A stretch of DNA of 64,000 nucleotides from an uncultured Candidatus Saccharibacteria bacterium (GCA_964585425.1 CAZPDI010000001.1:4804-68803); one strand, 5' to 3'. Counted from the first letter of the stretch, positions 8,694-56,742 are shown. Numbers and translations: made by a program. Notes: a model not told the origin generated them from the sequence alone.

Positions 8694-9879
8694 TGAGCAC
8701 GTCGTCTTCGATGCGGACACCTATCCCCTCTTCGGCGATATAAATACCCGGCTCACATGTCAGCACCATACCGGCTTCGAAGACTGCTTCACGACTGCCC
8801 ACGTCATGAGCGTCAAGACCTAAAAAGTGTTAGGTAATATGTTTAAAATAACGACGATAAGCTGGCCAACCTAGCTCACCTTCTAACTCATCGGCCTTTT
8901 CTAAAGTTTCAAATAATCCAATCTCAACCAACGTATTAGCCATGATCTGAGCCGCTTGGCGTTCAAATTCGTTGAATTTGACTCCTGGTTTCATCAAAGC
9001 TAATGCCTCTTGCTGGACCAATCGGACTGTATCTATAATCTGCTGTTGGCGTTCACTCAACTCATCAATCGAAAACGTTCGCGAGATATCCGCCGCATAA
9101 CCTTCGACTTCGACGCCGACATCAAACAAGACCAGATCACCCTTATTCATTTTAGTCGCATCTGGCTGATGATGAATAATACAGGTATTTTTGCCAAATG
9201 AGATAATAGGCGGGAAGGCTTGCTCATAGCCTCGCGCGCTACAAAATTTAATAAATTCGGCAGCTATTTCTCGCTCAGTAACCCCCACTTTCAACAATGA
9301 TTTGGCGTGAGCTATGGCTAGATGCGTCTCAGATATAGCCTGGGATATCACATCAACTTCTTCATCAGATTTAATCACGCGCAAATTTTCTATTTCGGGA
9401 TTGATCGCCGCCAACTCTACATCTGGATGAGATTCTTTGATCAGGTTCCATAACTGCCAAGCTGCTATCTGACTCACTGCAGTATCTGGCATGTCTATAT
9501 ACACAATTTGTGGCGAATCCTTCAGGAGCTTTGCTATCAGCTCATCTCGCTCTTTATACTCCTGGATCGAATCTATACCGCTCTGAGTCCTCAGTTCAGC
9601 AATCTGATTGCTACGCCCCTCCCAGACTGCCATAAAGGGATGGAGCTGTGTAATGTACAGCTCTTCAATAATACGCTCATCCTGGGTCTTTTTAAGCACC
9701 AAAATCGCATCTGGCTGACTGATACCGGTCAGATACAAAAAATTATTACTCTGCCGGAACGGATAGGTGGCGTCGGCAGTACGCTCAATCTCTGAATTAC
9801 CCGCCAGTATAAGCATACTATCTGGAGCCATAGTGGCCGCTATCTGTTGACGCCGATGTAGATAAGTCGCGCTATTCAT
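8643..9879 (-). pseudogene. Xaa-Pro aminopeptidase (M24B) interrupted by an in-frame TAA
   Basis: Creatinase/M24 N-terminal and catalytic domains. An in-frame TAA at 8830-8832 falls inside the conserved H..GH.LGLD.HD motif ([16 protein letters not shown]). The same frame continues through [25 protein letters not shown] to a stop near 8643 and overlaps the nadD 3' end. Confidence 0.55.
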
Positions 9880-9906: not shown

Positions 9907-9935
9907 TTGACATTACTATCACTTGGGAAGATAAT
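9907..9935 (+). promoter_or_regulatory. Predicted sigma70 promoter for cassette 1
   Basis: TTGACA, 17-nt spacer, GATAAT. Confidence 0.45.
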
Positions 9936-9977
9936 ATCACACATGTTTGAGCGTCTCTGACGCTCAGATAGAAACCC

Positions 9978-10011
9978 GACAAAGCCAACCTACTACCCCG
10001 AAAGAGGTCCC
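9978..10011. repeat. 5' box of cassette 1 (GACAAAGCCAAC..CCGAAAGAGGTCCCG)
   Basis: Repeated at 10404-10437 before cassette 2. Its reverse complement is found after each stop codon. Confidence 0.6.
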
Positions 10012-10269
10012 GTGACCAAAATCACGAACCGCAGCATCGCTCCTGCTGGCAGCATCTCCCAGATCGCTCAGCTCCACCAGGACGGAGAGATCGACCGCGA
10101 CCAGACCACTCAGGTGATCGAAGTGGTTGCGGAACATGCCGCAGAGGCGCCAAACACCTGTCCGCGCTGTCAGCGCGCCAACTGCCCAGTGACGAGGGGC
10201 GGCAACTGCCAGTTGCCAGACATGAAGGTGGTGGATCACCTGGTTCGTCAGCTGCAGACCTCCAACTGA
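10012..10269 (+). CDS. High-GC small zinc-ribbon-like protein
   Basis: GTG start 3 nt after AAAGAGG. CPRC-x4-C-x7-C cysteine arrangement. GC3 nearly 100%. Confidence 0.5.
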   Translation: MTKITNRSIAPAGSISQIAQLHQDGEIDRDQTTQVIEVVAEHAAEAPNTCPRCQRANCPVTRGGNCQLPDMKVVDHLVRQLQTSN

Positions 10270-10270
10270 T

Positions 10271-10320
10271 CTCGAGTCGGTCCTATGGGATCGAGGGGCG
10301 ACGAGGCTTGGCTTTGTCAC
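10271..10320. repeat. 3' box of cassette 1 (hairpin GGTCCtatGGGATC plus GGCTTGGCTTTGTCAC)
   Basis: The 11-bp core TTGGCTTTGTC is the reverse complement of GACAAAGCCAA in the 5' box. The extended region is an imperfect inverse of the 5' box. Confidence 0.55.
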
Positions 10321-10335
10321 CCCCTTATAAAATAG

Positions 10336-10364
10336 TTGACTTTACATGATTATTAAAGTATAGT
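10336..10364 (+). promoter_or_regulatory. Predicted sigma70 promoter for cassette 2
   Basis: TTGACT, 17-nt spacer, TATAGT, in an AT-rich spacer. Confidence 0.5.
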
Positions 10365-10403
10365 TATTGTCATGCTTGCATACGAAGTATGCGCGCACCT
10401 TAC

Positions 10404-10437
10404 GACAAAGCCAACAACTACACCGAAAGGGGTCCCG
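10404..10437. repeat. 5' box of cassette 2 (GACAAAGCCAAC..CCGAAAGGGGTCCCG)
   Basis: Copy of the 9978-10011 box, immediately before the ATG. Confidence 0.6.
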
Positions 10438-11169
10438 ATGGGATCTTCTGGAATTCTGGGGTTTCCCAAGGCTGCACACCGCGCCCCCACCATCAGCGAG
10501 GGGTACCAGGAGTACGTCGAGGAGATGACCGGCCTGGCCGTGTGCATGATCTGCGATAGCGGAACATGCCCCGGCGCCAGTGGACGCGCTTGCCCCTATG
10601 AACTCGACGTCTGCACCGTCTGCTGGCAGCTCGACTGCATTAGCGTCTTCGGTCACGACTGCCCTTCGGAGGAACGCTGCAACAACTGCGGTCACCTCCG
10701 GAACGAATTCGGCCATTACAGCAACTGCTCAATGCCCACAATGAAGCTGTGCGACGAGTGCGGGAGCGCAACCTGTCGCGTCAACCCGCCAAAGGAAATG
10801 CGAGAGGAGTACCCGTCGGACTACAATCCGTACTGGGATGACCACCACAGCATCTTCGATACGCTGGGCTGCCTCTTGGGTAGCCCGATCAGCGAGGAAG
10901 AACGGATCGCGGAAGAGATCGCATCGTGTTGGGCTCCGCGCACCGACCAGATGTCCCGAGATCGAGTACGGCAACAGATGCTGAGAACATGGATTGATCG
11001 TGATCTGGACAAAGCAGCTGAGGAAGCTCAGCAGCGCGCCGACCAGATGTCCCAGTCCATGCATCAGCTCACCGAGCTTGCGGACGACTACGACGACGGA
11101 CTGATCTCCGAGAACGTGGTTCTGATGCTCCTCCGGGCTGATCATCGCGGTGTACGGCTCTCCGGGTGA
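10438..11169 (+). CDS. High-GC cysteine-rich (multi-CxxC) protein with an acidic helical C-terminal half
   Basis: Start chosen at ATG 10438 right after the conserved 5' box. The longer 10372 start lies inside the AT-rich promoter. About 18 Cys in the first ~110 aa, in CxxC pairs. GC3 very high. Confidence 0.5.
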   Translation: MGSSGILGFPKAAHRAPTISEGYQEYVEEMTGLAVCMICDSGTCPGASGRACPYELDVCTVCWQLDCISVFGHDCPSEERCNNCGHLRNEFGHYSNCSMPTMKLCDECGSATCRVNPPKEMREEYPSDYNPYWDDHHSIFDTLGCLLGSPISEEERIAEEIASCWAPRTDQMSRDRVRQQMLRTWIDRDLDKAAEEAQQRADQMSQSMHQLTELADDYDDGLISENVVLMLLRADHRGVRLSG

Positions 11170-11209
11170 CCTTTGAGGGTCGGTGAGCGTCAAGGCTTGG
11201 CTTTGTCAC
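11168..11209. repeat. 3' box of cassette 2 (hairpin GACCtttgagGGTC plus GGCTTGGCTTTGTCAC)
   Basis: Same 16-nt core as 10305-10320, inverse of the 5' box. Confidence 0.55.
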
Positions 11210-11275
11210 TCACCTAAGTGTATATACACGATAAATACATTTAGGTGAGTATTATTAAGATAAACACAACTTCTA

Positions 11276-11304
11276 TTGACAAATAGGGTTTAGTTTGCTA
11301 TACT
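11276..11304 (+). promoter_or_regulatory. Predicted sigma70 promoter for cassette 3
   Basis: TTGACA, 17-nt spacer, TATACT. Confidence 0.5.
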
Positions 11305-11365
11305 TATGCGCAATCTGGTGGAACACCCATCCGATAGAACACAGACCACAACCCAAGGAAAGCCC

Positions 11366-12103
11366 ATGTCTCAGCTCGTCATCGTCCAGGGCCCCAAGCC
11401 CCGCACGTCCGCGGTGTCCGACAAGGATGCCCACAACCTCCGCCTCCAGGCGGACAAGGTGCTGGCCAGGCACCGCGGTGATCTCCCCCAGGAGATCGTC
11501 ACGCAGCTGACCAGCCCGATGCCCGGCATCGTGGGCATGGGACTGCACGACGCGGCCTCCTGGATCAAGCAGCGCACCGCCAACCTCAAGCTGCAGTACG
11601 TGCAGCAGCACCCCGACTGCGAGGCGGCCATGGCCCTCAAGACCCGAGTCGACAACGTCCTCAACGGCGAGTTCGGCGACAAGGTCAAAAAGAGCCTCGA
11701 CATGCGTGGTCAGCGCATCCTCGAGCTGGACCTGTACCAGATCTTGAGCACCGACCAGCTGAAGAGCTTCGCCCACTTCGTCAAGAAGGCCGAGGCAGTC
11801 GAGGGTCGCTTGCAGACCGAGAAGGCACGCAAGGCGGTGCCGGCCCAATCGCTCCAGATGCTGTTCCCGTCCAAGGAGAAGCGCGAGCGCAAGCCGAAGA
11901 AGGTCAAGCCGGCCTACGCCGGTCTCCCCGCACCGTCCACCGGGATCGTCACCGACTGGAAGAGCGACGTCGGCAGCGTCGGTGCCCCGAACCCCCAGGG
12001 TCCGGCGCCGGCACGCGGCGTCACCCTCCGCAAGTCCGACAAGGCTCGCGCCAAGGGAGTGAAGGGTGGTGGCGTCAAGACCCGTCCGGGGCGACGCAAC
12101 TGA
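11366..12103 (+). CDS. High-GC hypothetical protein with a lysine/arginine-rich C-terminal tail
   Basis: AAGGAAAG RBS. GC3 about 95% in this frame. The antisense ORF 11273..12130 is rejected as a GC artefact. C-terminal tail reads KEKRERKPKKVK...KARAKGVKGGGVKTRPGRRN. Confidence 0.5.
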   Translation: MSQLVIVQGPKPRTSAVSDKDAHNLRLQADKVLARHRGDLPQEIVTQLTSPMPGIVGMGLHDAASWIKQRTANLKLQYVQQHPDCEAAMALKTRVDNVLNGEFGDKVKKSLDMRGQRILELDLYQILSTDQLKSFAHFVKKAEAVEGRLQTEKARKAVPAQSLQMLFPSKEKRERKPKKVKPAYAGLPAPSTGIVTDWKSDVGSVGAPNPQGPAPARGVTLRKSDKARAKGVKGGGVKTRPGRRN

Positions 12104-12119
12104 CCAGTTGATCTGCGTT

Positions 12120-12154
12120 CCCCGAGTCATGACATCGTCGTCATGGCTCGGGGG
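12120..12154. terminator. Hairpin between convergent cassette 3 and uvrA
   Basis: CCCCGAGTCATGA ... TCATGGCTCGGGG inverted repeat. Confidence 0.35.
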
Positions 12155-12163
12155 ATCAACACT

Positions 12164-15016
12164 TTATGACTTATTAGAAAATATACGATTCAAGTAAATA
12201 CCGGTATGGCTGCCTTTTACTTTGGCGACTTTTTCGGGGGTACCTTCGGCTATAACGGTACCGCCACCAGCACCACCTTCGGGGCCCATGTCGACGAGCC
12301 AGTCGCTGGATTTGATGATGTCCAGATTATGTTCGATAATCAGCACTGAGTTACCAGTATCGACGAGACGGTTGAGAACCTGCAGGAGACGTCGGACGTC
12401 TTCGAAGTGCAGACCGGTAGTCGGTTCGTCGAGGATGTAGAGAGTTTTACCGGTGCTACGGCGGCTTAGCTCGGAGGCGAGTTTAATACGCTGAGCTTCG
12501 CCACCACTAAAGGTTGTGGCTGATTGACCGAGGTGAATATAGCCCAGGCCGACATCATTAAGGGTTTCGAACTTGCGGCGAATGGCTGGAATGTTTTCGA
12601 AGAACGCCACCGCTTCTTCGACAGTCATGTCCAAGACTTCGCTAATGTTTTTACCTTTATAACGAATTTCTAAGGCTTCACGGTTATAACGTTTGCCCTT
12701 ACATTCGTCGCAGGTTACATAAACGTCTGGCAAGAAGTGCATTTCGATCTTGATAATACCGTCACCACGGCAGACTTCGCAGCGCCCACCCTTGACGTTA
12801 AAACTAAAGCGCCCGGCTTTATACCCACGAATCTTGGCTTCGGGCGTGGATGCAAATAATTCACGAATGTTGCTAAAGACGCCAGTGTAGGTAGCCGGAT
12901 TAGATCGCGGTGTGCGACCGATTGGCGATTGATCAATACTGATGACTTTGTCCAGATTCTTGAGGCCTTCAATGTCATCGTGTTTGCCAGGAACATCGCC
13001 GGCTCGATGATATACTTGCGCGAGTTTCTTGGAAAGAATGTCGTTAATCAGGCTTGACTTACCAGAGCCCGACACACCGGTAACCGTCGTCATCATGCCC
13101 AGAGGCAATGATACATCGATGCCTTTAAGATTATGCTCGCGGGCATTTTTAATAACTAAGTGCTTGCCATTGCCTGGTCGGCGCTTTTTAGGTATCTCAA
13201 TTTTACGAGCACCACTAATGTACTGGCCGGTTAAACTTTCTTTAACTTTGGCAACTTCGTCTGGCGTACCGGCAGCCACCACGTTACCGCCGTGTTTACC
13301 AGCAGCTGGGCCGATATCGATCACGTAATCGGCCGTGCGGATAGTGTCTTCGTCGTGTTCGACGATAATGACGGTATTACCAAGATTGCGTAGACGCTCC
13401 ATGGTGACGATCAACCGATCATTGTCGCGTTGGTGCAGACCAATGCTTGGTTCGTCCAGGATGTAGAGTACGCCCATCAGACTGGAGCCAATTTGCGTAG
13501 CCAAACGAATACGCTGAGCCTCGCCACCAGCTAGGGTGTTAGCACTGCGATCAAGCGTAAGGTATTGCAGGCCAACATCCTGCAAAAAGCTCAGACGCGC
13601 GCAAATCTCTTTCATGATTTGTTTGGCAATCACTTGATCTTTTTCGCTAAGTTCCAAGCCATCGAAGAACTCTACAGCGTCGCCAATACTATAGGTTGTC
13701 ACATCCGCGATGTTTTTACCGTTGACGGTAACGGCCAACACTTCGGGCTTGAGGCGCTTGCCTTCACACACCGGACAAGGACGTTCGGCCATGTACTTTT
13801 CGATTTCCTTGCGCACAAAGTCACTATCGGTGTCATGATATCGTCGCTCCATATTGGGAATGACGCCCTCAAATGTTGACTGATAGGTACGGCCGCCTGG
13901 ACCGCGTACTGGAATCTTCTCGTCCCCTGTTCCGTACAAAATCGTCTTGAGGTCGTTGGGTTTCATGGCGTTTACGGGCGTATCAATACTAAATCTAAAC
14001 TTATTAGCCACACCATTGAGTAGTTTGGTATACCACGTCATCCGACTCGTAGTACGACTCCATGGGCGAATAGCTCCTTCGTTAATGCTGAGGCGACGAT
14101 TTGGGATGACAAGCTCAGGGTCAACTTCTAAGCGTATACCAAGTCCCGTACAGTGCGGGCAGGCACCATGCGGTGAGTTAAAACTAAAGTTACGGGGAGC
14201 AATTTCTGGAAAACTGATCTCGCGGTGCACCGGACAGGCAAAGTGCTCGCTAAAGTCTTTTTCTTCATCAGTATCCACAAAGTGAACCTTAACGATGCCG
14301 TCACCCAGGCCCAACGCTTGTTCCACCGATTCGCTCAATCGCTTAACGACATCTTCGGCAATAACCAATCGATCGACGATGGCCTCTACGGTGTGCTTTT
14401 TTTGTTTATCGAGATCCGGGAATTCATCAATATCATATAGAGTGCCGTTAACCCGCAAGCGCGAATACCCAGCTTTTTTAAGTTCTTGCACGACACCGCG
14501 ATGCTCGCCCTTTTTGTCGCTAACTACTGGCGCAATAATCATGATTTTAGAATCTTGCGGGGATTTCATGATTTGGCTCACAATTTGATCGGCCGATTGT
14601 TTGGTGACTTCGCGACCGCAGACGGGACAATGTGGCACGCCAACGCGCGCGTACAAAAGACGCAAATAATCATAAATTTCCGTAACGGTACCAACCGTAC
14701 TGCGCGGATTACGGCTCGACGATTTTTGATCAATAGAAATCGCTGGGCTCAGACCGTCAATTTGATCGACGTCTGGTTTTTCCATAAGACCCAAAAACTG
14801 CCGGGCGTAGGCACTTAGGCTCTCGACGTAACGGCGCTGACCTTCGGCATAAATGGTATCGAATGCCAAGCTAGACTTGCCTGATCCAGAAAGGCCAGTA
14901 ATAACGACCAGCTTATCGCGTGGAATCTCCACGTTAATATTTTTGAGATTATGCTCCCGGGCACCACGAACTACGATTTTGTCATGCATAACAGACGGTT
15001 CTCCACGGTGACTCAC
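12164..15016 (-). CDS. uvrA: Excinuclease ABC subunit A
   Basis: 950 aa. Two ABC ATPase modules with a Walker A (GLSGSGKSS and GVSGSGKSS) and zinc-finger CxxC pairs. Confidence 0.95.
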
Positions 15017-30117: not shown

Positions 30118-30135
30118 TTGCTTATTCTTTTACAA

Positions 30136-30150
30136 TCTAGCTAATCAGCC
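30136..30150. repeat. Left inverted repeat TCTAGCTAATCAGCC
   Basis: 14 of 15 positions match the reverse complement of 30607-30621. Confidence 0.55.
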
Positions 30151-30181
30151 CACCACAACCAAACAAACAAAGGAGCGAGCG

Positions 30182-30556
30182 ATGATCACATGTGAAGTGC
30201 AGGACCAGGCTGGCGGGAAGTCCACGAGCGTCATCACCCTCGGTGATGCCCTGGCTGCCGTTGCCTACCTGATCGGCATCAGCGGGAACTCCCAGCTTGA
30301 GTACCACGAGCTGATCGAGGGCCAGTCGTTGACCATCATCTCGGAAGGACATGCCCTCGTTGGGCAGATCGAGATGCCGGACTTCGAGGAGGAGGAGCCC
30401 TACTTCGGCCTGATGTACACCTTCTCCAGCAACGGCGATCGCGACTTCGAGCTGTTCAGCCTGCTGGTTCTGCCGGCAATGTTGCTGAACCTGCAGCAAT
30501 GCGAACCGCAGGTGATCATCGAGCTCGAGCGGATGCGCCAACCGGTGACCGCCTGA
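30182..30556 (+). CDS. High-GC hypothetical acidic protein (124 aa)
   Basis: AAGGAG RBS 7 nt upstream. GC3 high. No family recognised. Confidence 0.5.
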   Translation: MITCEVQDQAGGKSTSVITLGDALAAVAYLIGISGNSQLEYHELIEGQSLTIISEGHALVGQIEMPDFEEEEPYFGLMYTFSSNGDRDFELFSLLVLPAMLLNLQQCEPQVIIELERMRQPVTA

Positions 30557-30575
30557 GGTTGCGGTGAGTAGGCCA

Positions 30576-30593
30576 GGTTCCCTCCGGGGAATC
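30576..30593 (+). terminator. Hairpin GGTTCCC-TCCG-GGGAATC
   Basis: Same hairpin type as the GGTCCC..GGGATC family. No immediate T-run. Confidence 0.35.
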
Positions 30594-30606
30594 TGTGCCG
30601 ACCACC

Positions 30607-30621
30607 GGCTGATTGGCTAGA
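30607..30621. repeat. Right inverted repeat GGCTGATTGGCTAGA
   Basis: Reverse complement of the left repeat at 30136-30150. Confidence 0.55.
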
Positions 30622-30630
30622 TAAAAAGAT

Positions 30631-39315: not shown

Positions 39316-39942
39316 CTACCAGTCGAAGTATTTCTCAATTTCGGCATGCAGTACGGCTAACGGATCTTGATCATCCGTATGCTTAGCATCTTCCGGGGCA
39401 GCAGCATCGGCTTTATTCTTTGGCTTAGCCTTGGGTCGCTTCTTTTTATAGGCCAAGGTGCTTTTGAGGTTGTTCATAAAATGGAGGTAAGGCTCAAACA
39501 TTTCTTCTTTATACAGGGCCGAGTATTTATTTCGATTCGGTATGATGAGCGTTTCAAGCTTGTCTTGTTCTATAAAGTACTTCACCAAGCACTGGAAGTC
39601 GCCGTCACCGCTTATCACAATTGCTTTATCGTATTTGTCATAATCTATCATGGCCTGCAGCACCAGCTCGGCGTCACAGTTACCCTTGGTGGTGCCGTCT
39701 TTATGCTCGATAGTCGGTTTATAAATACATACAAAACCGGCCGCCTCCAAGGTGTTATAGAGGTCTTCGTGCCCCTCAATAAAACCCACAAAAATATAGG
39801 CCTTCACCACGTTGTAATTTTCGGCTAGATAGGCTCGGAAACGCTTATGATCAAGCGGCCAGCCCATTTCGCGAATGGAGAGGTTGAGGTTTTGACTATC
39901 GATAAATGCATAATTGCCGAGCTGGTCGGTCTTGGGTTCCAT
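39316..39942 (-). CDS. NYN-domain (LabA-like PIN-fold) protein
   Basis: FIDSQN...GNCDAEL...SGDGDF motifs of the NYN/LabA nuclease fold. Confidence 0.65.
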   Translation of the reverse strand: MEPKTDQLGNYAFIDSQNLNLSIREMGWPLDHKRFRAYLAENYNVVKAYIFVGFIEGHEDLYNTLEAAGFVCIYKPTIEHKDGTTKGNCDAELVLQAMIDYDKYDKAIVISGDGDFQCLVKYFIEQDKLETLIIPNRNKYSALYKEEMFEPYLHFMNNLKSTLAYKKKRPKAKPKNKADAAAPEDAKHTDDQDPLAVLHAEIEKYFDW

Positions 39943-40040: not shown

Positions 40041-40415
40041 ATGAATGCACCTGCCCGTCCCATGCCCGACATCACCGATGTGGAGCTGACCAAGAAGATC
40101 ATCGATGAACGTGTGAAGCACCACAACCTGCGCCATGAAGATGGTGAAGCGATCTGGATGGTAGTCACGGCCATCGGTCATGCCATCAAGATCGGTGATC
40201 CTCAGTACAGCCCGATGATCGACCGCAACGTCACGGGGCTGCGCAACGAGGCGAGGCCAGGCGAAGTTCCGGTCATCTTGCTGTCCGACCTGAACCGCAT
40301 CTTCTGTGACGACACGTTGATACGCGAGCTGCAGCGGGTGTTCCCGAGCATCGTCAATGATGCGGCGCGCGTTGCCTGCTGGAAGTTCCGCAACTGCATG
40401 TACGGATGCGACTGA
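40041..40415 (+). CDS. High-GC hypothetical protein (124 aa), module 1 gene A
   Basis: TAAGGAT RBS. GC3 high. No family recognised. Confidence 0.45.
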   Translation: MNAPARPMPDITDVELTKKIIDERVKHHNLRHEDGEAIWMVVTAIGHAIKIGDPQYSPMIDRNVTGLRNEARPGEVPVILLSDLNRIFCDDTLIRELQRVFPSIVNDAARVACWKFRNCMYGCD

Positions 40416-40417
40416 TC

Positions 40418-40627
40418 ATGCGCCTTCGGATCCCCTGGCGCAAGCAAACCGTGCCGCCGCCACCCGCGACTGTCGCGATGAAGGCTGCGCCCCTGGTGCC
40501 GCCACCTCATCGCCGGATGACGGCCGAAGAACGCGCTGCGTGCTGCCAAGATCAGAGGAAGATCAAGCTGCGTGCTGCCAAGCGTTGTCGGCGCAAGGCC
40601 CGAAAGCGCCGACTGCGCAACAAGTAA
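40418..40627 (+). CDS. Pro-rich/basic small protein, paralog 1 (alternative start 40406)
   Basis: GACTGATCATG junction with the upstream gene is conserved in paralog 42234..42467. Differences between the paralogs are often synonymous in this frame. Confidence 0.5.
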   Translation: MRLRIPWRKQTVPPPPATVAMKAAPLVPPPHRRMTAEERAACCQDQRKIKLRAAKRCRRKARKRRLRNK

Positions 40628-40645
40628 CCCCCGTGAGGCGGATCG

Positions 40646-40680
40646 CCGAAAGGTCCCTCTTGCGGGGGATCTTTCGTTAT
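40646..40680 (+). terminator. Family hairpin GAAAGGTCCC-tcttgcg-GGGGATCTTTC plus GTTAT
   Basis: 9-bp stem including G-U pairs, with a U-rich tail. Confidence 0.5.
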
Positions 40681-40687
40681 GGTGATA

Positions 40688-40716
40688 TTGATTTATACCT
40701 GTAAATGTGATTAAAT
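40688..40716 (+). promoter_or_regulatory. Predicted promoter of unit 2
   Basis: TTGATT, 17-nt spacer, TTAAAT. AAAGGAGAG RBS follows. Confidence 0.35.
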
Positions 40717-40750
40717 TTCCCTATTCCGTTTCGAGTCCAAAGGAGAGACC

Positions 40751-40984
40751 ATGACGGACGCACATGCCACGGCCGTCTCCACGGTCTATTTTTGGCTCGA
40801 GTACGAGTTGGGTATCGATAATCCTGATCACGTTGAACTGACCATGATTATCGAGAATGGCTGGCTGCGCTATCGGTGCCCGGCCCACGACATCACCCCG
40901 CTTGAAATCGCCCGCCTCGAAGCTGCCTGCCGGCACCACGCCCATTCTCTTGAAGTGCACCTGAACCTGGAGGTTCAATCATGA
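40751..40984 (+). CDS. High-GC small hypothetical protein (77 aa)
   Basis: AAGGAGAG RBS. ATGA overlap with the next gene. Confidence 0.4.
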   Translation: MTDAHATAVSTVYFWLEYELGIDNPDHVELTMIIENGWLRYRCPAHDITPLEIARLEAACRHHAHSLEVHLNLEVQS

Positions 40985-41733
40985 TTGTCCACAAGCACGA
41001 CATCGATACCGCAGCTCGTCTGGCCGCCAAAGAGCGGTTCATGAACGAGTCATGGCTGGATGATCGCAAGGTGCGATCATGGTTCGCTTGGCTCGGTATC
41101 CGTCCTGACGGTCATCAAGCATTGCGCATCTTGCGCGCTGTGCATGCCACGGCTGCCACCGTGCGTGAGTACAAGATCCACCATCGCCACACGCGCTTCG
41201 GTCGAACGATGCGCCTGCAGCGCCGGCTCCCACCGTGGCCCGCCAAGTACGCGGATACCCCGGTCATCAATGCCGCGCAGATGCTGCTGGTGACTCAGCG
41301 CACGGACTACATCCACCTCACGGAGCTGACGCGACCAATTACGGGTACCAGTTATCGGCACGGCGACAATCGACGCGTCGATATGGAAACGTGCAAGATG
41401 TTCCTGGAGAACGTGCAGAGCAAGTTCATGCGCGAAGCCGTTTGGTCAGATGAGTTGGTATGTATCGAGAGCTTTGCGCGGCTCGGCCTGACGCCCGATG
41501 AGCTGCTGGTGGCCGAGATGGCTCTGATCCGTCTGATGAGTAGGTATCGGCACGAAAAGGGGCTTACCTGGTATCTGATGCCGACCTATGGCAGCCGGAG
41601 CCGCCGCTTGCACACCCTCACCATGGGTGATTTCTTGAACATCACCCGATTTCTCCAACCCAACTATGGCGACACCGACATGGAGTTTCTCATGACGCTG
41701 GCCGATCGTCTGCGTTCGCGACTTGCGACCTGA
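40981..41733 (+). CDS. High-GC hypothetical protein (250 aa)
   Basis: GC3 high. Translationally coupled to the preceding ORF. No family recognised. Confidence 0.45.
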   Translation: MIVHKHDIDTAARLAAKERFMNESWLDDRKVRSWFAWLGIRPDGHQALRILRAVHATAATVREYKIHHRHTRFGRTMRLQRRLPPWPAKYADTPVINAAQMLLVTQRTDYIHLTELTRPITGTSYRHGDNRRVDMETCKMFLENVQSKFMREAVWSDELVCIESFARLGLTPDELLVAEMALIRLMSRYRHEKGLTWYLMPTYGSRSRRLHTLTMGDFLNITRFLQPNYGDTDMEFLMTLADRLRSRLAT

Positions 41734-41764
41734 TCTCGACACATACCCTCGCGGGGGCTTTTCT

Positions 41765-41798
41765 ACGGAAAGGTCCCTGCGGGGGATCTTTCGTTTAT
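41765..41798 (+). terminator. Family hairpin ACGGAAAGGTCCC-TGCGG-GGGATCTTTCG plus TTTAT
   Basis: Near-identical copy at 42492-42525. Confidence 0.55.
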
Positions 41799-41801
41799 AG
41801 C

Positions 41802-41830
41802 TTGCAATATCAATACTTTAAATGTATAAT
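41802..41830 (+). promoter_or_regulatory. Predicted sigma70 promoter of module 2
   Basis: TTGCAA, 17-nt spacer, TATAAT. AAGGAG RBS at 41849. Confidence 0.5.
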
Positions 41831-41859
41831 TTGTAAATCCGTACGACCAAGGAGTACCC

Positions 41860-42231
41860 TTGACCGAAGCCAATACCCTACCCAAGGCCGATGCCAGCGT
41901 CAAGCTGTCCGACGACATCATCGCAAGCTGCTACGAGGGCTGCGATCCCCGTGAGTCCGATCGAGCTCGCGGCTGCATCGCCGCCCTCAAGGACCTGCTA
42001 CGGCTCGCCGAGAAGACGCCGAACGACGCGCGCTACCAGGAGATCCGGGAGTTCGACGCCGACACCCTGACCGTTGGCCAGTTCATCACCCTGATGTACC
42101 TGCCGGCGATGTCGCCGAATCAGCCCCGCCAGCTGATGCGCAACGTGCGTAGCAACTGGGGGCGACTCAACCAGCGAGTTCTCATCGAGCTGCGAGACAA
42201 GCTGGATGAGCGCTACGAGCCCCAGGACTGA
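41860..42231 (+). CDS. High-GC hypothetical protein (123 aa), module 2 gene A
   Basis: TTG start 6 nt after AAGGAG. GC3 high. Not similar to 40041..40415. Confidence 0.45.
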   Translation: MTEANTLPKADASVKLSDDIIASCYEGCDPRESDRARGCIAALKDLLRLAEKTPNDARYQEIREFDADTLTVGQFITLMYLPAMSPNQPRQLMRNVRSNWGRLNQRVLIELRDKLDERYEPQD

Positions 42232-42233
42232 TC

Positions 42234-42467
42234 ATGGGCATCTGGAACTCTCGGCGCAAGAAGACGACACCACCGCCACCTCCTCCTGCACCTCCTCCGC
42301 CGCCCGCGGCTGTCGCGATGAAGACTGCACCACTGGCGCCGCCACCGCGTCGCCGAATGACGGCCGAAGAACGCGCCGCTCTCAAGCTGCCCAAAGTGAA
42401 GGCCCGGCAGCGCCTGGCCAAGAACCGACGCGCCAAGGTCAGGAAGCGCAAGCACAAGAAGTCCTGA
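42234..42467 (+). CDS. Pro-rich/basic small protein, paralog 2
   Basis: PPPPPPAPPPPPAAVAMKTAPLAPPPRRRMTAEERAA plus a K/R-rich tail. About 85% nucleotide identity to the 40418 paralog in the central part. Confidence 0.5.
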   Translation: MGIWNSRRKKTTPPPPPPAPPPPPAAVAMKTAPLAPPPRRRMTAEERAALKLPKVKARQRLAKNRRAKVRKRKHKKS

Positions 42468-42491
42468 TCGCGCCCCTGTGGGGACTTTTCT

Positions 42492-43119: not shown

Positions 43120-43545
43120 CTAGAGCCCCTCTATAAATGTCTCGATAAAGCTATTCAGCTTGCTGCCAACTCGAGTAATGATCGAGTCTCGCTCCAAAAT
43201 CTTGGGCTTAGCTATTAATGTAGCGGCAATCTCATTGCGGCGTGGCTTGCGGCCAGTGAATAAGTAATCGTTAATCAGTTTTTGCAATTCATCGGTCATT
43301 AGACCTTCTTCAACACACATGGCCTCAAAAGCTTTAGCGCGCTCGACATTCCAGAACGAATCAAACTCACCAGCTACATCTTCAGGATTCTCGATCTTGG
43401 GTAGCGATCGGGCAATAAATTTCTCAATCAGCTCGCGCTTGCTACGCAGCACGGCATTGCCCATAAGCGTGTTATTAAGATTATCGATTATCTGAGCTTT
43501 TTTTGATCTTCCGACATAACCCCTCGCTTTGTGTCTATTGTACAC
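43120..43545 (-). CDS. Stand-alone fragment resembling the C-terminal helical domain of a type I restriction enzyme R subunit (possible remnant)
   Basis: 141 aa. The ..FW..E.AKAFE..C.EE.L....L.K.I..YLFT.RKP.R.EI...L..KPK.LER..I..R.. pattern is recalled from HsdR C-termini. No helicase or nuclease part and no hsdM/hsdS nearby. Confidence 0.3.
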   Translation of the reverse strand: MYNRHKARGYVGRSKKAQIIDNLNNTLMGNAVLRSKRELIEKFIARSLPKIENPEDVAGEFDSFWNVERAKAFEAMCVEEGLMTDELQKLINDYLFTGRKPRRNEIAATLIAKPKILERDSIITRVGSKLNSFIETFIEGL

Positions 43546-43680: not shown

Positions 43681-44283
43681 TTATTTTTTTGCGCGGTACA
43701 CCAGCGGCTTGCCCCAAATATCCTCACTTATTCTCAAAATATCAATGTAGCCATCGCCCCCTGTAAGAAGTTCACTAGATACATTATTTTTAGATGATAC
43801 AATATATACTTTTTTATCACGATTGCGGATAAAACTCACAAGTTCGAGGAAGTCTGAGTCGCCACTAAACAGGACGGCCACATCGTACGAATTGACTAGG
43901 GCTACAGCATCAATGGTAAGCTCAACATCCATATTACCCTTTTCAATAATTAATCCACTACCAGTTTTTATCTGCTTGAGTGGTTTTTTGCGGACTATAT
44001 ATCCCATTCTTTTTTGCAGTGCAGTGTAGAAAGAATGCTTATTCGAAACACTATACTCTCGAGTACCAACCTCGGGATAGGCATCATAATAGTAAATCTC
44101 TAATACACTTGCATGGTATTTTACTTTCAGATAGTTTTTGAGTTTTTTCATATCTAAAAGAACCCCTTTGGTCTTTTGGGCCTGCCAGAGATTAGAGGCA
44201 TCAATAAAAACGTGAACTCTTTTATTCATATCATTAATTATACGGTATTTGTTCGGTATTAGTCGAGGCCGTAATGTCCCCAC
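43681..44283 (-). CDS. NYN-domain (LabA-like) protein
   Basis: VFIDASN...GNMDVEL...SGDSDF motifs. Paralogous in fold to 39316..39942. Confidence 0.65.
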   Translation of the reverse strand: MGTLRPRLIPNKYRIINDMNKRVHVFIDASNLWQAQKTKGVLLDMKKLKNYLKVKYHASVLEIYYYDAYPEVGTREYSVSNKHSFYTALQKRMGYIVRKKPLKQIKTGSGLIIEKGNMDVELTIDAVALVNSYDVAVLFSGDSDFLELVSFIRNRDKKVYIVSSKNNVSSELLTGGDGYIDILRISEDIWGKPLVYRAKK

Positions 44284-44457: not shown

Positions 44458-44868
44458 ATGCCAAGCGCACAGACCATCCTCCCTCTGACCGCCGAACAGG
44501 TGGCCATGCCCGTGACCGCTGCCATCCTCACCACGGAGGACATCATCGGCGACCACGGGAGGTACCCGAAGGACATCGCTCACAGCTTGTCCACCATCTG
44601 CGAGTTCCTGCAGGAGGTCAAGCGGGAGGTCAAGCAGAGTCCAAGGGCCTACCTCGGCTGGTTGGAGTTGGCGGATGAGAACGGGGTGCGCTTCAGCGAG
44701 CGCGATTACCCCAGCATCACCGCAGGGTTCCTCCTGGCCGTGATGGAATCCAGCGCCGCCTGGGGCACCGTGATGAAGCACGGTCCGGAGGACTACTGCT
44801 TCGAGCAGCTGAACATGCTGAGGACGGCGGTCTACGCCCTCCTCTTCAAGCGGTCGCTGGCTGGCTGA
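44458..44868 (+). CDS. High-GC hypothetical protein (136 aa)
   Basis: Start at the first ATG after the RBS. GC3 high. Confidence 0.5.
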   Translation: MPSAQTILPLTAEQVAMPVTAAILTTEDIIGDHGRYPKDIAHSLSTICEFLQEVKREVKQSPRAYLGWLELADENGVRFSERDYPSITAGFLLAVMESSAAWGTVMKHGPEDYCFEQLNMLRTAVYALLFKRSLAG

Positions 44869-53646: not shown

Positions 53647-54582
53647 TTATTTAGTAAAGTAGGTGGTCTTTACCAGGGTATAGACTTTTGATCCCAGCGG
53701 GATAAGCAACAATACGATGCCGAGCCCAAGCAAGTAATAGGTTTGGCTGTTAAAGGTGGCAATGAAGGCGTTGTAGACATTTTCTACGACGATACGCAAG
53801 TTCTGCTGGTTGACCTGAGCCAATACTGGCGGCTTAAACAATGGACCGACCAAGAGTGCCAGCAAGCCTGCGGTTGAGACAGCGATACCCTGCCCGACCA
53901 GTAACTTGTTAGTTGGATAGCGTTTTTTCACATGTGGCCAGACCAGCAAGAAGAGCGCCAACAGGAAGGCTAATGGTGCTACAAAGGTCAGCACTACACC
54001 AGCCTGATAGAATGATGGGATCTTATCGATATTTTTAAAGATAGTAATAGTGTCAGGTACTTGATCAACCTTAACTACCGCTTCATCCTTATTAGCCAAG
54101 GTCAGCAACTTGGTAATGGTGGTTTTGATACCGCTTAGATCATAGGTGATTGGCTCTGGTCGCTTAGAGGTAAACAAGATCTGCACTTTACCCACTACGG
54201 CATTCAGAGCATTCTGCGCTTGCTGAGTATTAAGCAATCCAGCAATAAAGTTGGTGGCTGGCTCGGCCACTACGGCACGAGCGGCTGGCTGGCTTTGCAA
54301 AGCGGTATCGACAATTTCGCCAGCTAGCGCATTACGGCTGCTTTGCGAGAGTAGTGCTTGACTGGTTACCGTAGTAAACTCCTTGGTATCAAACATCGTA
54401 CGGTTCACCCAAATAGCTGAGTTCGCCACTACTAAAAGCAGCGCAGCCAAGATGGTACTTAGAATAAAATTACGCTTCTTATGTGATTTCTTAGTTGGCG
54501 CAGCAACCGTCTGGCTGGCAACGGACTGAGTTTTTTTCTTTACAGGTGTTTTTGTTGTCTTCTTAGGTGCGGTCCTTGCCAT
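53647..54582 (-). CDS. Membrane hypothetical protein
   Basis: N-terminal K/T-rich region, then two or three TM segments. Confidence 0.4.
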   Translation of the reverse strand: MARTAPKKTTKTPVKKKTQSVASQTVAAPTKKSHKKRNFILSTILAALLLVVANSAIWVNRTMFDTKEFTTVTSQALLSQSSRNALAGEIVDTALQSQPAARAVVAEPATNFIAGLLNTQQAQNALNAVVGKVQILFTSKRPEPITYDLSGIKTTITKLLTLANKDEAVVKVDQVPDTITIFKNIDKIPSFYQAGVVLTFVAPLAFLLALFLLVWPHVKKRYPTNKLLVGQGIAVSTAGLLALLVGPLFKPPVLAQVNQQNLRIVVENVYNAFIATFNSQTYYLLGLGIVLLLIPLGSKVYTLVKTTYFTK

Positions 54583-54688: not shown

Positions 54689-55771
54689 CTACCCTGTCCA
54701 GCGCTGACGCTGCAGATCCTCTACCTGCCAACGCAACGTTTGTCCCGCCCGGAATGGCACCACCCCGCCGATCTCTTCAGGCACAGCCCAGGGGATCCTC
54801 GACAACAACACATAATTGTCGTCTTGTGGGGGCTCGACGCCGTAGAACTTGCAACCAGCAATGGAGACAAACTGCTCCAGCCTCTCCGGCCAGTCCTCCA
54901 GACCACTGTCCTCGAACAGTTCCGCCAGCACCGGCAGAGCAACTGGTCCGGAATACACGCCGTTGTTAGGCTTTGCCTTCAGCTTGTCCTCGATTCGATG
55001 AGGCGCCGAGTCGCTACCGAAGAAGATCTTGGGCGGATCACCCGGCTTGACACTGAGCATCGCAGCCAAGATGGCTTGACGATCTTCCTCGGTCTTGGCT
55101 CGCGGCAAACAGGCATGATGCGGCTGATCGATGACACCATCGTGCTCAACGTCATTAATGGTCAAGCATGGATGATGAGCCGTGATGGTGGCAGCGACGT
55201 TGGCCGGCAGCTCCATGATGAGGTTGATGGCATCGGCAGAAGAGACGTGCTCGAAGACGATTCGCAGACCCGGGAATGCCTCATGCACCTCCATGAACAG
55301 CTCGAGGAACATCTGCTCAGCATGAGCGAGATCGTCGGTTGAGACTTCGCCGTGCACGTTAAGCACGACATCAAGCTCCTGCATCACTTCAAATACTGGC
55401 CACCCGTCGTGGATATCCCGCAAACCAAAACCCGAATGAGTCGTGGTGTTGTACGGATAATACTTGACCGAACAGAATCCGTTGCGACGTTCGTACATCA
55501 GACGGATGATCGCTTCATCAGTGTCTGGCGTGAGGTACAAGGTCGGCCACAAGTTCACCATGTTCAGGCCTTTCAGCCCTGCCTGCACCTCTTGCAGATA
55601 GTGGAACGCATGCATAGCGTCACTTACTGGCACCGGGTTGAGGTTTGGCATGAGCAAGGCGTAATGGAGATGACCAATGCTGGGACGAACAACATCTTTC
55701 AGCAGACGTCCTTGACGAACATGAACGTGCCAATCGCTCGGACGACGCATCTTGAGTGCCAAGTAGGGCAT
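54689..55771 (-). CDS. pyrC: Dihydroorotase, type II (E. coli-like homodimeric form)
   Basis: LKMRRPSDWHVHVRQG, LMPNLNPVPV, KYYPYNTTTHSGFG, VHGEV, RIVFEHVSS, AATITAHH, FFGSDSAPH, VVPFRAGQTLRWQV all align with E. coli PyrC. High GC. Confidence 0.85.
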   Translation of the reverse strand: MPYLALKMRRPSDWHVHVRQGRLLKDVVRPSIGHLHYALLMPNLNPVPVSDAMHAFHYLQEVQAGLKGLNMVNLWPTLYLTPDTDEAIIRLMYERRNGFCSVKYYPYNTTTHSGFGLRDIHDGWPVFEVMQELDVVLNVHGEVSTDDLAHAEQMFLELFMEVHEAFPGLRIVFEHVSSADAINLIMELPANVAATITAHHPCLTINDVEHDGVIDQPHHACLPRAKTEEDRQAILAAMLSVKPGDPPKIFFGSDSAPHRIEDKLKAKPNNGVYSGPVALPVLAELFEDSGLEDWPERLEQFVSIAGCKFYGVEPPQDDNYVLLSRIPWAVPEEIGGVVPFRAGQTLRWQVEDLQRQRWTG

Positions 55772-55807
55772 GGTGAGTCCTTTCGGGACGTTGTGAGTGA
55801 ACGAACA

Positions 55808-55827
55808 AAGGTGTGCCTAAGCACACC
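55808..55827. promoter_or_regulatory. Perfect palindrome AGGTGTGC-CTAA-GCACACCT in the pyrC leader
   Basis: 8-bp arms. Lies between the pyrC start and the pyrE terminator. Confidence 0.3.
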
Positions 55828-55871
55828 TCCATAACCATTACTATACACTATTATTCATAAATTGCGAGCGT

Positions 55872-55901
55872 CTGGGCCAGGGGAACTCTCCCCCGGCCCA
55901 G
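55872..55901 (-). terminator. Hairpin downstream of pyrE, preceded on the plus strand by TTCATAAATTGCGAGC
   Basis: CTGGGCCAGGGG ... CCCCGGCCCAG inverted repeat. Confidence 0.45.
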
Positions 55902-55923
55902 CGCGAACCGTTGAATACGGGGC

Positions 55924-56583: not shown

Positions 56584-56666
56584 GTGCGTTCCTAACGTGA
56601 GACGAATGCGCCAACTGGTCACATCCGAATTATTATCCTATTCATAAAAGTTATTTACAAGCATAA

Positions 56667-56734: not shown

Positions 56735-56742
56735 CGAGCATG

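What the first reader, a model, noticed from the sequence alone, without database searches (positions are those of the whole stretch)
9907..12160. Tandem array of three high-GC single-gene cassettes between pepP and uvrA, two of them bracketed by about 35-50-bp imperfect inverted repeats
Three GC-rich ORFs lie in tandem on the plus strand: a zinc-ribbon-like 85-aa protein, a 243-aa multi-CxxC protein, and a 245-aa protein with a histone-like K/R tail. Their GC3 is close to 100%. Each is preceded by an AT-rich leader with a near-consensus promoter: TTGACA-17-GATAAT, TTGACT-17-TATAGT and TTGACA-17-TATACT.

Cassettes 1 and 2 start exactly after a conserved box, GACAAAGCCAAC..CCGAAAG(A/G)GGTCCCG(G/A)TG. 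Each ends, right after its stop codon, with a small GGTCC/GACC hairpin plus GGCTTGGCTTTGTCAC. That sequence is the reverse complement of the 5' box core (11 of 11 bp) and an imperfect inverse of its extension.

Each ORF is therefore flanked by terminal inverted repeats, which is also an mRNA 5'-3' panhandle. The AT-rich promoter spacers sit between an outward-facing TTGGCTTTGTC and GACAAAGCCAA. This looks like a gene-capture cassette array (integron-like or MITE-like) inside a ~50% GC genome. No recombinase is visible.
Basis: partly seen in the sequence, partly recalled or inferred. Interest (0 to 1): 0.8.

Follow-up and report, generated by a model that had tools for sequence, protein, structure and literature searches.

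The report
Conserved hypervariable high-GC locus, end-pairing mRNAs
Three GC-rich orphan genes between pepP and uvrA are an old, fast-evolving locus kept in at least eight related lineages, not captured mobile cassettes, and the repeated boxes look like mRNA elements that pair the two ends of each transcript.

Summary
Three plus-strand ORFs have GC3 of 0.73-0.90 against about 0.5 in neighbours. Each has a near-consensus promoter. Two are bracketed by an 11-bp perfect inverted pair, GACAAAGCCAA / TTGGCTTTGTC. GC3 is not near 100%, and the inverted repeat is 11 bp, not 35-50 bp.

The integron/MITE reading fails. The same layout sits at the same pepP-uvrA junction in at least 8 lineages whose uvrA synonymous sites are saturated. 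The boxes are invariant there and absent elsewhere: only chance hits in 185,579 genomes and JGI metagenomes. No recombinase, attC, consistent target duplication or dispersed copies were found.

P1 and P2 are diverged tandem paralogues of a Cys-rich family (C-x2-C-x4-C-x7-C). They share boxes because a whole transcription unit was duplicated. L004/L005 lost one unit by recombination inside the 3' box.

Each unit reads promoter, covarying 5' stem-loop, box, SD, ORF, box complement, terminator hairpin. Full-transcript folding gives the box duplex probability 0.90-0.997 in 8 of 8 transcripts.

P3 is a helical protein with a disordered basic tail, only 37-47% identical between lineages where UvrA is 94-98%. 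It keeps GC3 near 0.9 everywhere, so high GC is maintained, not recent import. Protein functions and the taxon remain unknown.

The parts
9907..9935 (+). Promoter of unit 1, TTGACA-17-GATAAT. It is conserved in the first unit of all lineages.
   Evidence: alignment A3
9943..9970 (+). Invariant CATG (probable transcript start) and the 5'-terminal stem-loop of unit 1
   Evidence: A3 consensus structure. 94% of cells are paired against at most 45% in slid controls, 7 of 10 pairs change on both sides, and 0 of 500 shuffles reach the observed covariation score.
9977..9989 (+). 5' box 1, CGACAAAGCCAAC (core 9978-9988)
   Evidence: It is invariant in 7 of 7 leaders and is the longest invariant run in A3.
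10012..10269 (+). P1, an 85-aa Cys-rich ORF with one C-x2-C-x4-C-x7-C module; GC3 0.76
   Evidence: Homologous to the L016 first-unit protein, E = 3e-8.
10288..10327 (+). 3' module 1, containing box complement TTGGCTTTGTC (10308-10318)
   Evidence: The duplex with 5' box 1 has probability 0.997 in the full-transcript fold.
10336..10364 (+). Promoter of unit 2, TTGACT-17-TATAGT
10372..10397 (+). Conserved ATG (of the invariant CATG) and the 5'-terminal stem-loop of unit 2
10403..10415 (+). 5' box 2, CGACAAAGCCAAC (core 10404-10414)
10438..11169 (+). P2, a 243-aa protein with repeated C-x2-C-x4-C-x7-C modules; GC3 0.73
   Evidence: 39% identical to the L011 homologue, with the Cys positions of the repeated modules conserved.
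11177..11216 (+). 3' module 2, containing box complement TTGGCTTTGTC (11197-11207). This is also the descending arm of local hairpin A.
   Evidence: TGGCTTTGTCAC is invariant in 9 of 9 copies. Long-range duplex probability is 0.92.
11208..11250 (+). Hairpin B, the terminator-like stem-loop stacked directly on the long-range helix
   Evidence: repeat I1. L017 carries compensatory changes.
11276..11304 (+). Promoter of unit 3, TTGACA-17-TATACT, with a TG before the second hexamer
   Evidence: conserved in relatives
11366..12103 (+). P3, 245 aa: helical domain (residues about 19-156) plus a disordered K/R/G/P-rich tail ending in GGGVKTRPGRRN; GC3 0.90
12120..12153 (+). Hairpin downstream of P3 (CCCCGAGTCATGAC...GTCATGGCTCGGGG), a probable terminator
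   Evidence: Read from the sequence; also present in L004, L001 and L011

Best explanation
This is a lineage-conserved, rapidly diversifying accessory locus in a small-genome bacterium. It consists of three independent, strongly promoted, monocistronic units that encode orphan proteins.

Units 1 and 2 are tandem duplicates of one ancestral transcription unit for a Cys-rich protein family, probably metal-binding. That is why both carry the same non-coding modules.

The boxes are cis-acting RNA elements. Each transcript starts with a stem-loop. An invariant 11-nt box in the 5' UTR then pairs with its perfect complement, which lies just before the terminator hairpin. The whole SD-plus-ORF is thereby closed into a loop, and both RNA ends are buried in structure.

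I infer that this stabilises the mRNA against 5'- and 3'-end-dependent decay. It may also tie stability to translation, as in B. subtilis hbs.

Unit number changes between lineages by unequal homologous recombination within the repeated 3' modules. Alleles are exchanged between lineages. High GC3 is a long-maintained property of these genes, not a sign of recent import.

Shown: conservation, paralogy, local RNA hairpins, invariance and complementarity of the boxes, and maintained GC3. Inferred: that the boxes pair in vivo, and that the pairing stabilises the mRNA. Unknown: what the proteins do.
For: Same junction and layout in relatives:
- L004/L005, L001/L002/L003, L011, L012-L015, L016, L017 and L018.

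Boxes invariant while everything around them varies:
- The 12-nt runs CGACAAAGCCAA and TGGCTTTGTCAC are the longest invariant runs in their alignments. The next longest are 4 and 2 nt. The chance is about 1e-8 per start position.

RNA structures:
- 5' stem-loop: 7 of 10 pairs change on both sides, and 0 of 500 shuffles reach the observed covariation score.
- 3' hairpins: 97% of cells paired against at most 53% when slid. They contain G.U pairs that work only on the sense strand.
- Full-length transcript folds: the box duplex is in the MFE structure (10-11 of 11 bp) with probability 0.90-0.997 in 8 of 8 transcripts of 390-886 nt. The architecture is identical in all of them.
- An unrelated high-GC unit at 30182-30556 has its own 16-bp end pair (15 Watson-Crick pairs plus 1 G.U). 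0 of 200 shuffles reach its score, and its pairing probability is 0.99.

Paralogy of the boxed ORFs:
- The C-x2-C-x4-C-x7-C module occurs once in P1 and repeatedly in P2.
- L016 first-unit protein against P1, E = 3e-8; L015 against L016, E = 2e-13.
- The leaders and 3' modules are shared.

Loss by recombination:
- The single 3' box of L004 overlaps both window alignments by 17 nt inside GGCTTGGCTTTGTCAC.

Divergence and GC3:
- UvrA is 94-98% identical in protein, with four-fold sites 39-50% identical. P3 is 37-47% identical in protein.
- P3-type genes have GC3 of 0.88-0.94 in all lineages, against 0.39-0.53 for flanking genes.
- Window against L004: P3 four-fold sites are 97% identical, uvrA four-fold sites 73%.

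Precedent:
- A 14-bp 5'/3'-UTR interaction in B. subtilis hbs mRNA modulates RNase Y cleavage (PMC5737220).
Against: - Both boxes are invariant, so there is no covariation to prove that they pair. Invariance fits recognition of a specific sequence at least as well as it fits pairing.
- An 11-nt perfect complement often pairs in silico wherever it is placed. When relocated it frequently still paired in L017 and L004, though rarely in win_c1 and L001.
- The 3' box also forms a conserved local hairpin A when the 3' element is folded alone.
- The first T of the 3' box is C in three lineages, with no compensating change in the 5' box.
- P3 and most other high-GC units lack any end pair.
- There are no expression, transcript-end or half-life data.
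- The link between first-unit proteins and P2 is weak at protein level (E = 0.012).
- What maintains the high GC3 is unexplained.
Confidence: 0.5

Rival explanations
1. Integron-like or MITE-like gene capture. Each boxed ORF would be a mobile cassette, inserted by site-specific recombination or transposition at the inverted repeats, from a high-GC donor.
For: Inverted 11-mers flank single ORFs. Unit number differs between lineages, with breakpoints inside the box. The composition is foreign-looking.
Against: - No tyrosine recombinase, transposase or reverse transcriptase was found among about 45 scanned ORFs of the window, including all neighbours.
- Each unit has its own promoter, unlike promoterless integron cassettes.
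- The spacer between a 3' box and the next 5' box does not fold as an attC-like hairpin, as read from the sequence and the unit-2 leader and win_c1 3'-end folds.
- There is no consistent target-site duplication.
- The box pattern gave only chance hits in coding sequences across 185,579 genomes and JGI metagenomes.
- The layout is ancestral to at least 8 lineages, and the boxed ORFs are paralogues.
- No donor homologues exist.
Confidence: 0.04
2. The inverted 11-mers act at the DNA level. They would be binding sites for a sequence-specific protein, such as a repressor that loops or roadblocks each unit, or an invertase that flips the ORF relative to its promoter (phase variation).
For: Strict invariance of both copies, with no G.U-type drift, is what a protein-recognised site predicts. 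Inverted repeats of 9-26 bp bracket known invertible switches (background knowledge). The locus looks like one engaged in an arms race.
Against: - All 9 independently assembled copies have the same orientation.
- No recombinase or regulator gene is adjacent.
- The unrelated 16-bp end pair of the 30182 unit, with a strand-specific G.U, argues that pairing itself is what is selected in this genome.
- The boxes sit inside the transcribed region, next to RNA hairpins that have covariation support.
Confidence: 0.15
3. The two boxes work separately. The 3' box would matter only as the arm of local hairpin A, a 3' stabiliser or processing site. The 5' box would be an unrelated leader element, such as a translational enhancer, a standby site or an sRNA target. 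Their complementarity would be a relic of shared origin.
For: Hairpin A is conserved, with one-sided G.U/A-U/G-C changes on its 5' arm. The 5' box sits in a C/A-rich unstructured stretch 10-25 nt upstream of the SD.
Against: - An 11 of 11 complement in a 3' UTR of about 100 nt is expected by chance about 2e-5 times (my estimate). It has also been kept for longer than uvrA synonymous sites take to saturate.
- If hairpin A were the only constraint, its 3' arm could covary with its variable 5' arm, but it is invariant.
- In full-length folds hairpin A has a probability of about 0.
Confidence: 0.2
4. The high GC reflects recent or repeated horizontal import from a high-GC reservoir (an actinobacterial host, its phages or plasmids), not maintenance within the lineage.
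For: - The codon usage is actinobacterium-like and C-ending, as read from the sequence.
- pyrC, pyrE and pyrF in the same window are also high-GC and look imported.
- An allele was recently exchanged between lineages.
Against: - An exhaustive profile search of 1.84 billion representatives finds only 6 full-length family members, and every one whose context could be read lies at this same locus.
- There are no hits in 50,697 phage records or in IMG/VR.
- The AT-rich spacers, boxes and position are co-inherited with the genes.
Confidence: 0.1

Closest known systems
5'/3'-UTR long-range interaction of Bacillus subtilis hbs mRNA (Braun, Durand and Condon 2017, PMC5737220)
   Same: Both are short, monocistronic mRNAs from strong promoters. 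In both, a structured leader and a 5' UTR segment pair with the 3' UTR (14 bp in hbs; 11-14 bp here), next to the terminator. In hbs the pairing limits endonuclease access.
   Different: The interaction here is only predicted. The sequences are unrelated. Here the duplex is invariant across lineages and is shared by two paralogous units. The nuclease complement of this organism is unknown.
Integron gene-cassette arrays
   Same: Tandem single-gene units in one orientation, repeated boundary sequences that include inverted cores, and a variable unit number between strains.
   Different: There is no integrase, attI or attC structure. Every unit has its own promoter and terminator. The unit contents are paralogues. 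The array is fixed at one chromosomal junction in a narrow lineage, and its boundary motif is found nowhere else.
REP/BIME and MITE repeats
   Same: Short extragenic sequences able to form hairpins, present in inverted orientation.
   Different: Exact box copies: four in this locus, plus one chance copy inside an ordinary coding sequence at 32271; none in other genomes. There is no consistent target duplication and no RAYT or transposase.
Fast-evolving accessory islets at conserved chromosomal hotspots (effector, immunity or defence-type loci)
   Same: A fixed position between housekeeping genes, extreme protein divergence (37-47% against 94-98% for UvrA), a mosaic of alleles, gain and loss of units, and recent inter-lineage exchange.
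   Different: No known defence, toxin or effector domain was found. GC3 is strongly deviant and stably maintained. The non-coding RNA modules are conserved.

Membership tests
Integron cassette array | Adjacent IntI-type tyrosine recombinase with attI | tested here: not met
   Pfam and NCBIfam scans of the flanking ORFs and about 45 ORFs across the window found no recombinase.
Integron cassette array | An attC site (57-141 bp imperfect palindrome with RYYYAAC / GTTRRRY cores) at the 3' end of each cassette | tested here: not met
   The 3' element consists of two conserved RNA-type hairpins with G.U pairs and no GTTRRRY core. The stretch from a 3' box to the next 5' box pairs only over the 11-mer.
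Integron cassette array | Promoterless cassettes expressed from a common Pc promoter | tested here: not met
   Each unit has its own promoter matching 10-11 of 12 consensus positions, conserved in relatives.
MITE / TIR transposon | Terminal inverted repeats with target-site duplications, and multiple dispersed copies | tested here: not met
   An 11-bp inverted pair is present. The 4-nt flanks match in only 2 of 8 units. There are no other copies in the window apart from one chance coding-sequence hit, and none in 596 Gb of genomes.
REP/BIME elements | Tens to hundreds of extragenic copies per genome | tested here: not met
   All four non-chance exact copies in 64 kb are in this locus. The complete genome was not available.
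mRNA with functional 5'/3'-UTR pairing (hbs type) | Complementary segments inside the 5' and 3' UTR of the same transcript | tested here: met
   The 11 of 11 complement lies between the predicted transcript start and the SD, and between the stop codon and the terminator hairpin. This holds for 8 units in 7 lineages. Transcript ends are predicted, not mapped.
mRNA with functional 5'/3'-UTR pairing (hbs type) | Evolutionary support for the pairing (covariation) | tested here: inconclusive
   Both strands are invariant, so no covariation is possible. A different unit in the same genome has a different 16-bp end pair.
mRNA with functional 5'/3'-UTR pairing (hbs type) | Pairing demonstrated in vivo, with an effect on nuclease cleavage or half-life | not testable with these tools
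   This needs structure probing, mutagenesis and decay assays.
Invertible DNA switch | Both orientations present in populations, and a cognate invertase | tested here: not met
   9 of 9 assembled copies have the same orientation, and no invertase is nearby. Read-level data were not available.
Diversity-generating retroelement | Reverse transcriptase plus a template/variable repeat pair | tested here: not met
   No reverse transcriptase was found in the scanned ORFs, and there is no TR/VR-like direct repeat in the locus.

The most novel reading that the evidence does not exclude
These are genes of an episymbiont that selection keeps in the codon and GC style of a high-GC partner organism and packages as unusually stable, end-paired mRNAs. 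The reason would be that the nucleic acid itself, or its expression, operates in or on the host cell. For example, transcripts could be stored for host contact or even delivered. Under this reading the proteins would be translocated effectors, and P3's basic disordered tail would be a secretion signal.
Probability: 0.06. Interest if true: 0.95.

Novelty: new variant of a known kind. Interest (0 to 1): 0.6.

Why it matters
- **mRNA end-pairing.** If the pairing is real, this is a clear natural case of bacterial mRNAs closed by 5'-3' UTR pairing. It would be conserved over long evolutionary distance while the enclosed ORF evolves almost freely. It would also be present in two sequence-unrelated versions in one genome. 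That would make end-pairing look like a reusable design principle for mRNA stability, not a one-off of hbs.
- **Composition and gene transfer.** Genes that hold GC3 near 0.9 in a genome at 0.5, across lineages whose synonymous sites are saturated, challenge the usual reading of deviant composition as recent horizontal transfer. They call for a selective or mechanistic explanation.
- **Candidate genes.** The locus provides three new, fast-evolving protein families at a fixed, easily amplified junction. These are natural candidates for host-interaction or conflict genes in a poorly understood group of bacteria.

Tried and rejected
- **duplexfold on 100-nt flanks.** It was too permissive, so I replaced it with an ungapped helix score with shuffles.
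- **End pairing as a general property of all high-GC units.** Rejected. It holds only for P1, P2 and the 30182 unit. The B2 and B3 scores come from neighbouring terminator palindromes.
- **Box searches in public collections.** The 2 genome hits and 1 metagenome hit were all chance matches.
- **icaR-type sequestration of the SD by the 3' UTR.** Rejected, because the predicted partners are inconsistent between lineages.
- **Terminator/antiterminator switch between hairpins A and B.** Not supported. Hairpin B forms in all folds, even with the 5' box mutated.
- **'Fossil start codon' after the P1 stop.** Not above background.
- **Rfam.** Nothing, even at E = 1.
- **Taxon identification.** It failed. 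Exact look-ups gave no organism names, and accession searches in the literature found nothing. Gene content is only compatible with a Patescibacteria/Saccharibacteria-like organism.
- **Literature.** Papers on Saccharibacteria genetics do not mention such loci.
Full report
**1. What is in the window**

Three plus-strand ORFs lie between a pepP-like gene (8830-9879, minus strand) and uvrA (12164-15016, minus strand):
- P1 at 10012-10269 (85 aa, GTG start);
- P2 at 10438-11169 (243 aa);
- P3 at 11366-12103 (245 aa).

The window averages 49% GC, and this region reaches 0.60-0.72. GC3 is 0.76, 0.73 and 0.90, against 0.34-0.60 for native genes. All three ORFs show the coding-frame signature GC3 > GC1 > GC2.

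Only three sites in 64 kb match TTGACA-17-TATAAT with at most one mismatch, and two of them are here.

The repeats are real:
- CGACAAAGCCAAC at 9977 and 10403.
- A 40-nt 3' module at 10288 and 11177 (78% identical).
- An exact 11-bp inverted relation, GACAAAGCCAA / TTGGCTTTGTC.

The window holds 11 matches to the 11-mer with at most 1 mismatch, against 1.5 expected. The only other exact copy (32271) lies inside an ordinary coding sequence.

The complementarity is 11 bp. The 35-50-bp similarity is direct, between the two units, not inverted. P3 has no such pair.

**2. The locus is conserved, not captured**

P2 and P3 are near-orphans among 5.8 billion clustered proteins, and P1 has no hit at all. 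An exhaustive profile search of 1.84 billion representatives with the P3 family found only six full-length members, plus one protein (P0044) that shares just the basic tail.

Every member whose context could be read sits at the same pepP-uvrA junction. These are L004/L005, L001/L002/L003, L011, L012-L015, L016 and L017; the short L018 contig ends before any flanking gene.

L011 has the full three-unit layout: a Cys-rich ORF, then a P2 homologue, then a P3 homologue, with the same boxes, hairpins and promoters. So unit 2 is ancestral.

L004/L005 lack unit 2. Their single 3' box overlaps both window alignments by 17 nt within GGCTTGGCTTTGTCAC. This is the signature of unequal recombination between the repeated 3' modules.

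**3. The boxes are unique to this locus and invariant**

The 5' pattern CGACAAAGCCAAC-N(7-11)-CGAAAGRGG found only two chance coding-sequence matches in 185,579 species-representative genomes. It found one unrelated contig in the JGI metagenomes. The boxes are therefore not REP-like or widespread.

Within the lineage, GACAAAGCCAA and TGGCTTTGTCAC are invariant in all 7 leaders and all 9 3' elements. They are the longest invariant runs in their alignments: 12 nt against the next-longest 4 and 2, with a chance of about 1e-8 per start position.

**4. The boxed ORFs are paralogues**

- P2 carries repeated C-x2-C-x4-C-x7-C modules. P1 carries one module with exactly that spacing.
- The first-unit protein of L016 matches P1 over this module (E = 3e-8).
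- The L015 and L016 first-unit proteins are homologous (E = 2e-13).
- The L015 protein matches P2 only weakly (E = 0.012).
- Two N-terminal types, V-T-x-I-T and M-(T)-G-S-S, are combined with the same module in different lineages.

Together with the shared leaders and 3' modules, this says units 1 and 2 are tandem duplicates of a whole transcription unit that have since diverged.

**5. RNA architecture**

- **Leaders (alignment A3).** A conserved promoter is followed by an invariant CATG 7 nt after the -10 hexamer, then a 10-bp stem-loop. In this stem 94% of cells are paired, against at most 45% in slid controls. Seven of 10 pairs change on both sides, and 0 of 500 shuffles reach the observed covariation score.
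- **3' elements (alignment A2).** These form hairpin A, whose descending arm is the 3' box, and hairpin B. 97% of cells are paired against at most 53% when slid. Changes are G.U/A-U/G-C on one side only. L017 carries compensatory changes. The G.U pairs work only on the sense strand.
- **Full-length folds.** I folded complete predicted transcripts (390-886 nt). The 5' box:3' box duplex was in the MFE structure with probability 0.90-0.997 in 8 of 8 cases, and it displaced hairpin A.
- **Common layout.** All eight read 5' stem-loop, 5-7 nt, long-range helix, SD plus ORF, the other helix strand, then a directly stacked 16-18-bp hairpin B.
- **Controls are mixed.** A relocated 11-mer often still pairs. 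The folding is therefore supportive, not decisive.
- **Second example.** A separate high-GC unit at 30182-30556 has a different 16-bp end pair, which starts at the predicted 5' end. 0 of 200 shuffles reach its score, and its pairing probability is 0.99. This favours pairing as such over a shared protein site.
- **Rejected sub-models.** I found no consistent SD sequestration and no evidence for a terminator switch.
- **Databases and precedent.** No Rfam family matches. The closest precedent is the 14-bp 5'/3'-UTR interaction of B. subtilis hbs mRNA, which modulates RNase Y cleavage (PMC5737220).

**6. Evolutionary dynamics and the GC puzzle**

| Comparison | Value |
|---|---|
| UvrA protein identity between lineages | 94-98% |
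| uvrA four-fold-site identity between lineages | 39-50% (near saturation) |
| P3 protein identity between lineages | 37-47% |
| GC3 of P3-type genes, all lineages | 0.88-0.94 |
| GC3 of Cys-rich genes | 0.56-0.82 |
| GC3 of flanking genes | 0.39-0.53 |

High GC3 has therefore persisted for longer than neutral sites take to equilibrate. It is maintained, and is not a trace of recent import.

Window versus L004 shows the opposite pattern. uvrA four-fold sites are 73% identical, while P3 four-fold sites are 97% identical. The flanks are 92-93% identical, while the P3 spacer plus N-terminal segment is 98.7% identical. The P1 body and the P3 C-terminus are unalignable. That is recent allele exchange and mosaicism.

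In the exchanged segment, 3-4 differing codons are synonymous and 1 is non-synonymous.

**7. Proteins**

- **The tail motif.** GGGVKTRPGRRN is conserved (window P3, P0003 and P0040; P0002, P0041-P0043 end differently). P0044, which has a different body, carries a similar tail at the same locus.
- **Family scans.** P1-P3 have no significant Pfam or PHROG match, the other ORFans no Pfam match, and none has a PADLOC match.

Function is unknown. An arms-race role (host interaction or conflict) is inferred only from the evolutionary pattern.

**8. Context**

- **Mobile-element genes.** No recombinase, transposase or reverse transcriptase occurs among the scanned ORFs.
- **Gene content.** The native genes include a split transketolase, FBA, GAPDH, LtaS, an LCP-family protein and many transporters. 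Nearly all genes lie on one strand. This is compatible with a Patescibacteria/Saccharibacteria-like organism. The taxon could not be established. Any link to a high-GC actinobacterial host is speculation.
- **Assembly chimera.** This is excluded, because the same junctions occur in more than ten independent assemblies.

**9. Verdict**

The integron/MITE interpretation is not supported. The panhandle idea is the best-supported mechanism for the boxes, but it is unproven.

The finding is a conserved, hypervariable, compositionally deviant orphan-gene locus with structured, probably end-pairing mRNAs. I rate it a new variant of known kinds, of moderate to high interest.

Noticed in passing
window 30135-30622: A separate high-GC ORFan unit (ORF 30182-30556, GC3 0.84). 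Its 16-bp pair, ATCTAGCTAATCAGCC / GGCTGATTGGCTAGAT, joins the predicted 5' end to the 3' UTR. It has 15 Watson-Crick pairs plus 1 G.U and a pairing probability of 0.99.
   Followed up: partly
window 40041-42470 and 44458-44868: More high-GC ORFan units (GC3 0.73-0.89) with AT-rich promoter spacers. Two are two-gene units in which a small Pro/Lys/Arg-rich protein (40418-40626, 42236-42467) follows the first ORF across a TGATCATG junction (stop, 2 nt, then ATG). A terminator, ...ACGGAAAGGTCCCTGCGGGGGATCTTTCGTTT, is repeated three times. There are no Pfam, PADLOC or IMG/VR hits.
   Followed up: partly
window 54689-57693 (minus strand): pyrC, pyrE and pyrF are high-GC (GC3 0.66-0.78), and each has its own terminator and AT-rich promoter. 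The promoter-like sequence GCTCGCAATTTATGAA...TATA(G/A)T occurs before pyrC and again before the native downstream gene (53647-54582), as if the insertion had duplicated the promoter.
   Followed up: partly
window 39316-39942 and 43681-44283 (minus strand): Two NYN-domain (RNase-like) genes flank the 40-kb and 44-kb high-GC islands. A 141-aa ORF matching only the C-terminal part of a type I restriction R subunit (43120-43545) lies between them.
   Followed up: no
window 8830-8832: pepP carries an in-frame TAA where L004 has a Ser codon. This splits it into a 349-aa ORF and a 52-aa ORF. It could be a pseudogene, a sequencing error or read-through.
   Followed up: partly
window 9943-9960 and 10372; L016, L001, L015, L017 leaders: The invariant CATG 7 nt after the -10 hexamer begins a tiny ORF at the probable transcript start. 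It reads MFERL* in the window, L004 and L016 (with synonymous changes that also compensate in the hairpin), MFEPSARA* in L001, MPR* in L015 and MART* in L017. These may be leaderless mini-ORFs.
   Followed up: no
L012 1061-1789 (also L013-L015): In one lineage an additional 242-aa high-GC gene (GC3 0.93) sits between the P3 homologue and uvrA, with its own promoter-like spacer. The locus can therefore hold a fourth unit.
   Followed up: no
L017 2685-3704: P0044 (339 aa) replaces P3 at the same position. It has an unrelated N-terminal body but a P3-like basic C-terminal tail, ...KGHKGGGVKGRPTRKG... (window P3: KGVKGGGVKTRPGRRN). This suggests the tail is a transferable functional module.
   Followed up: partly
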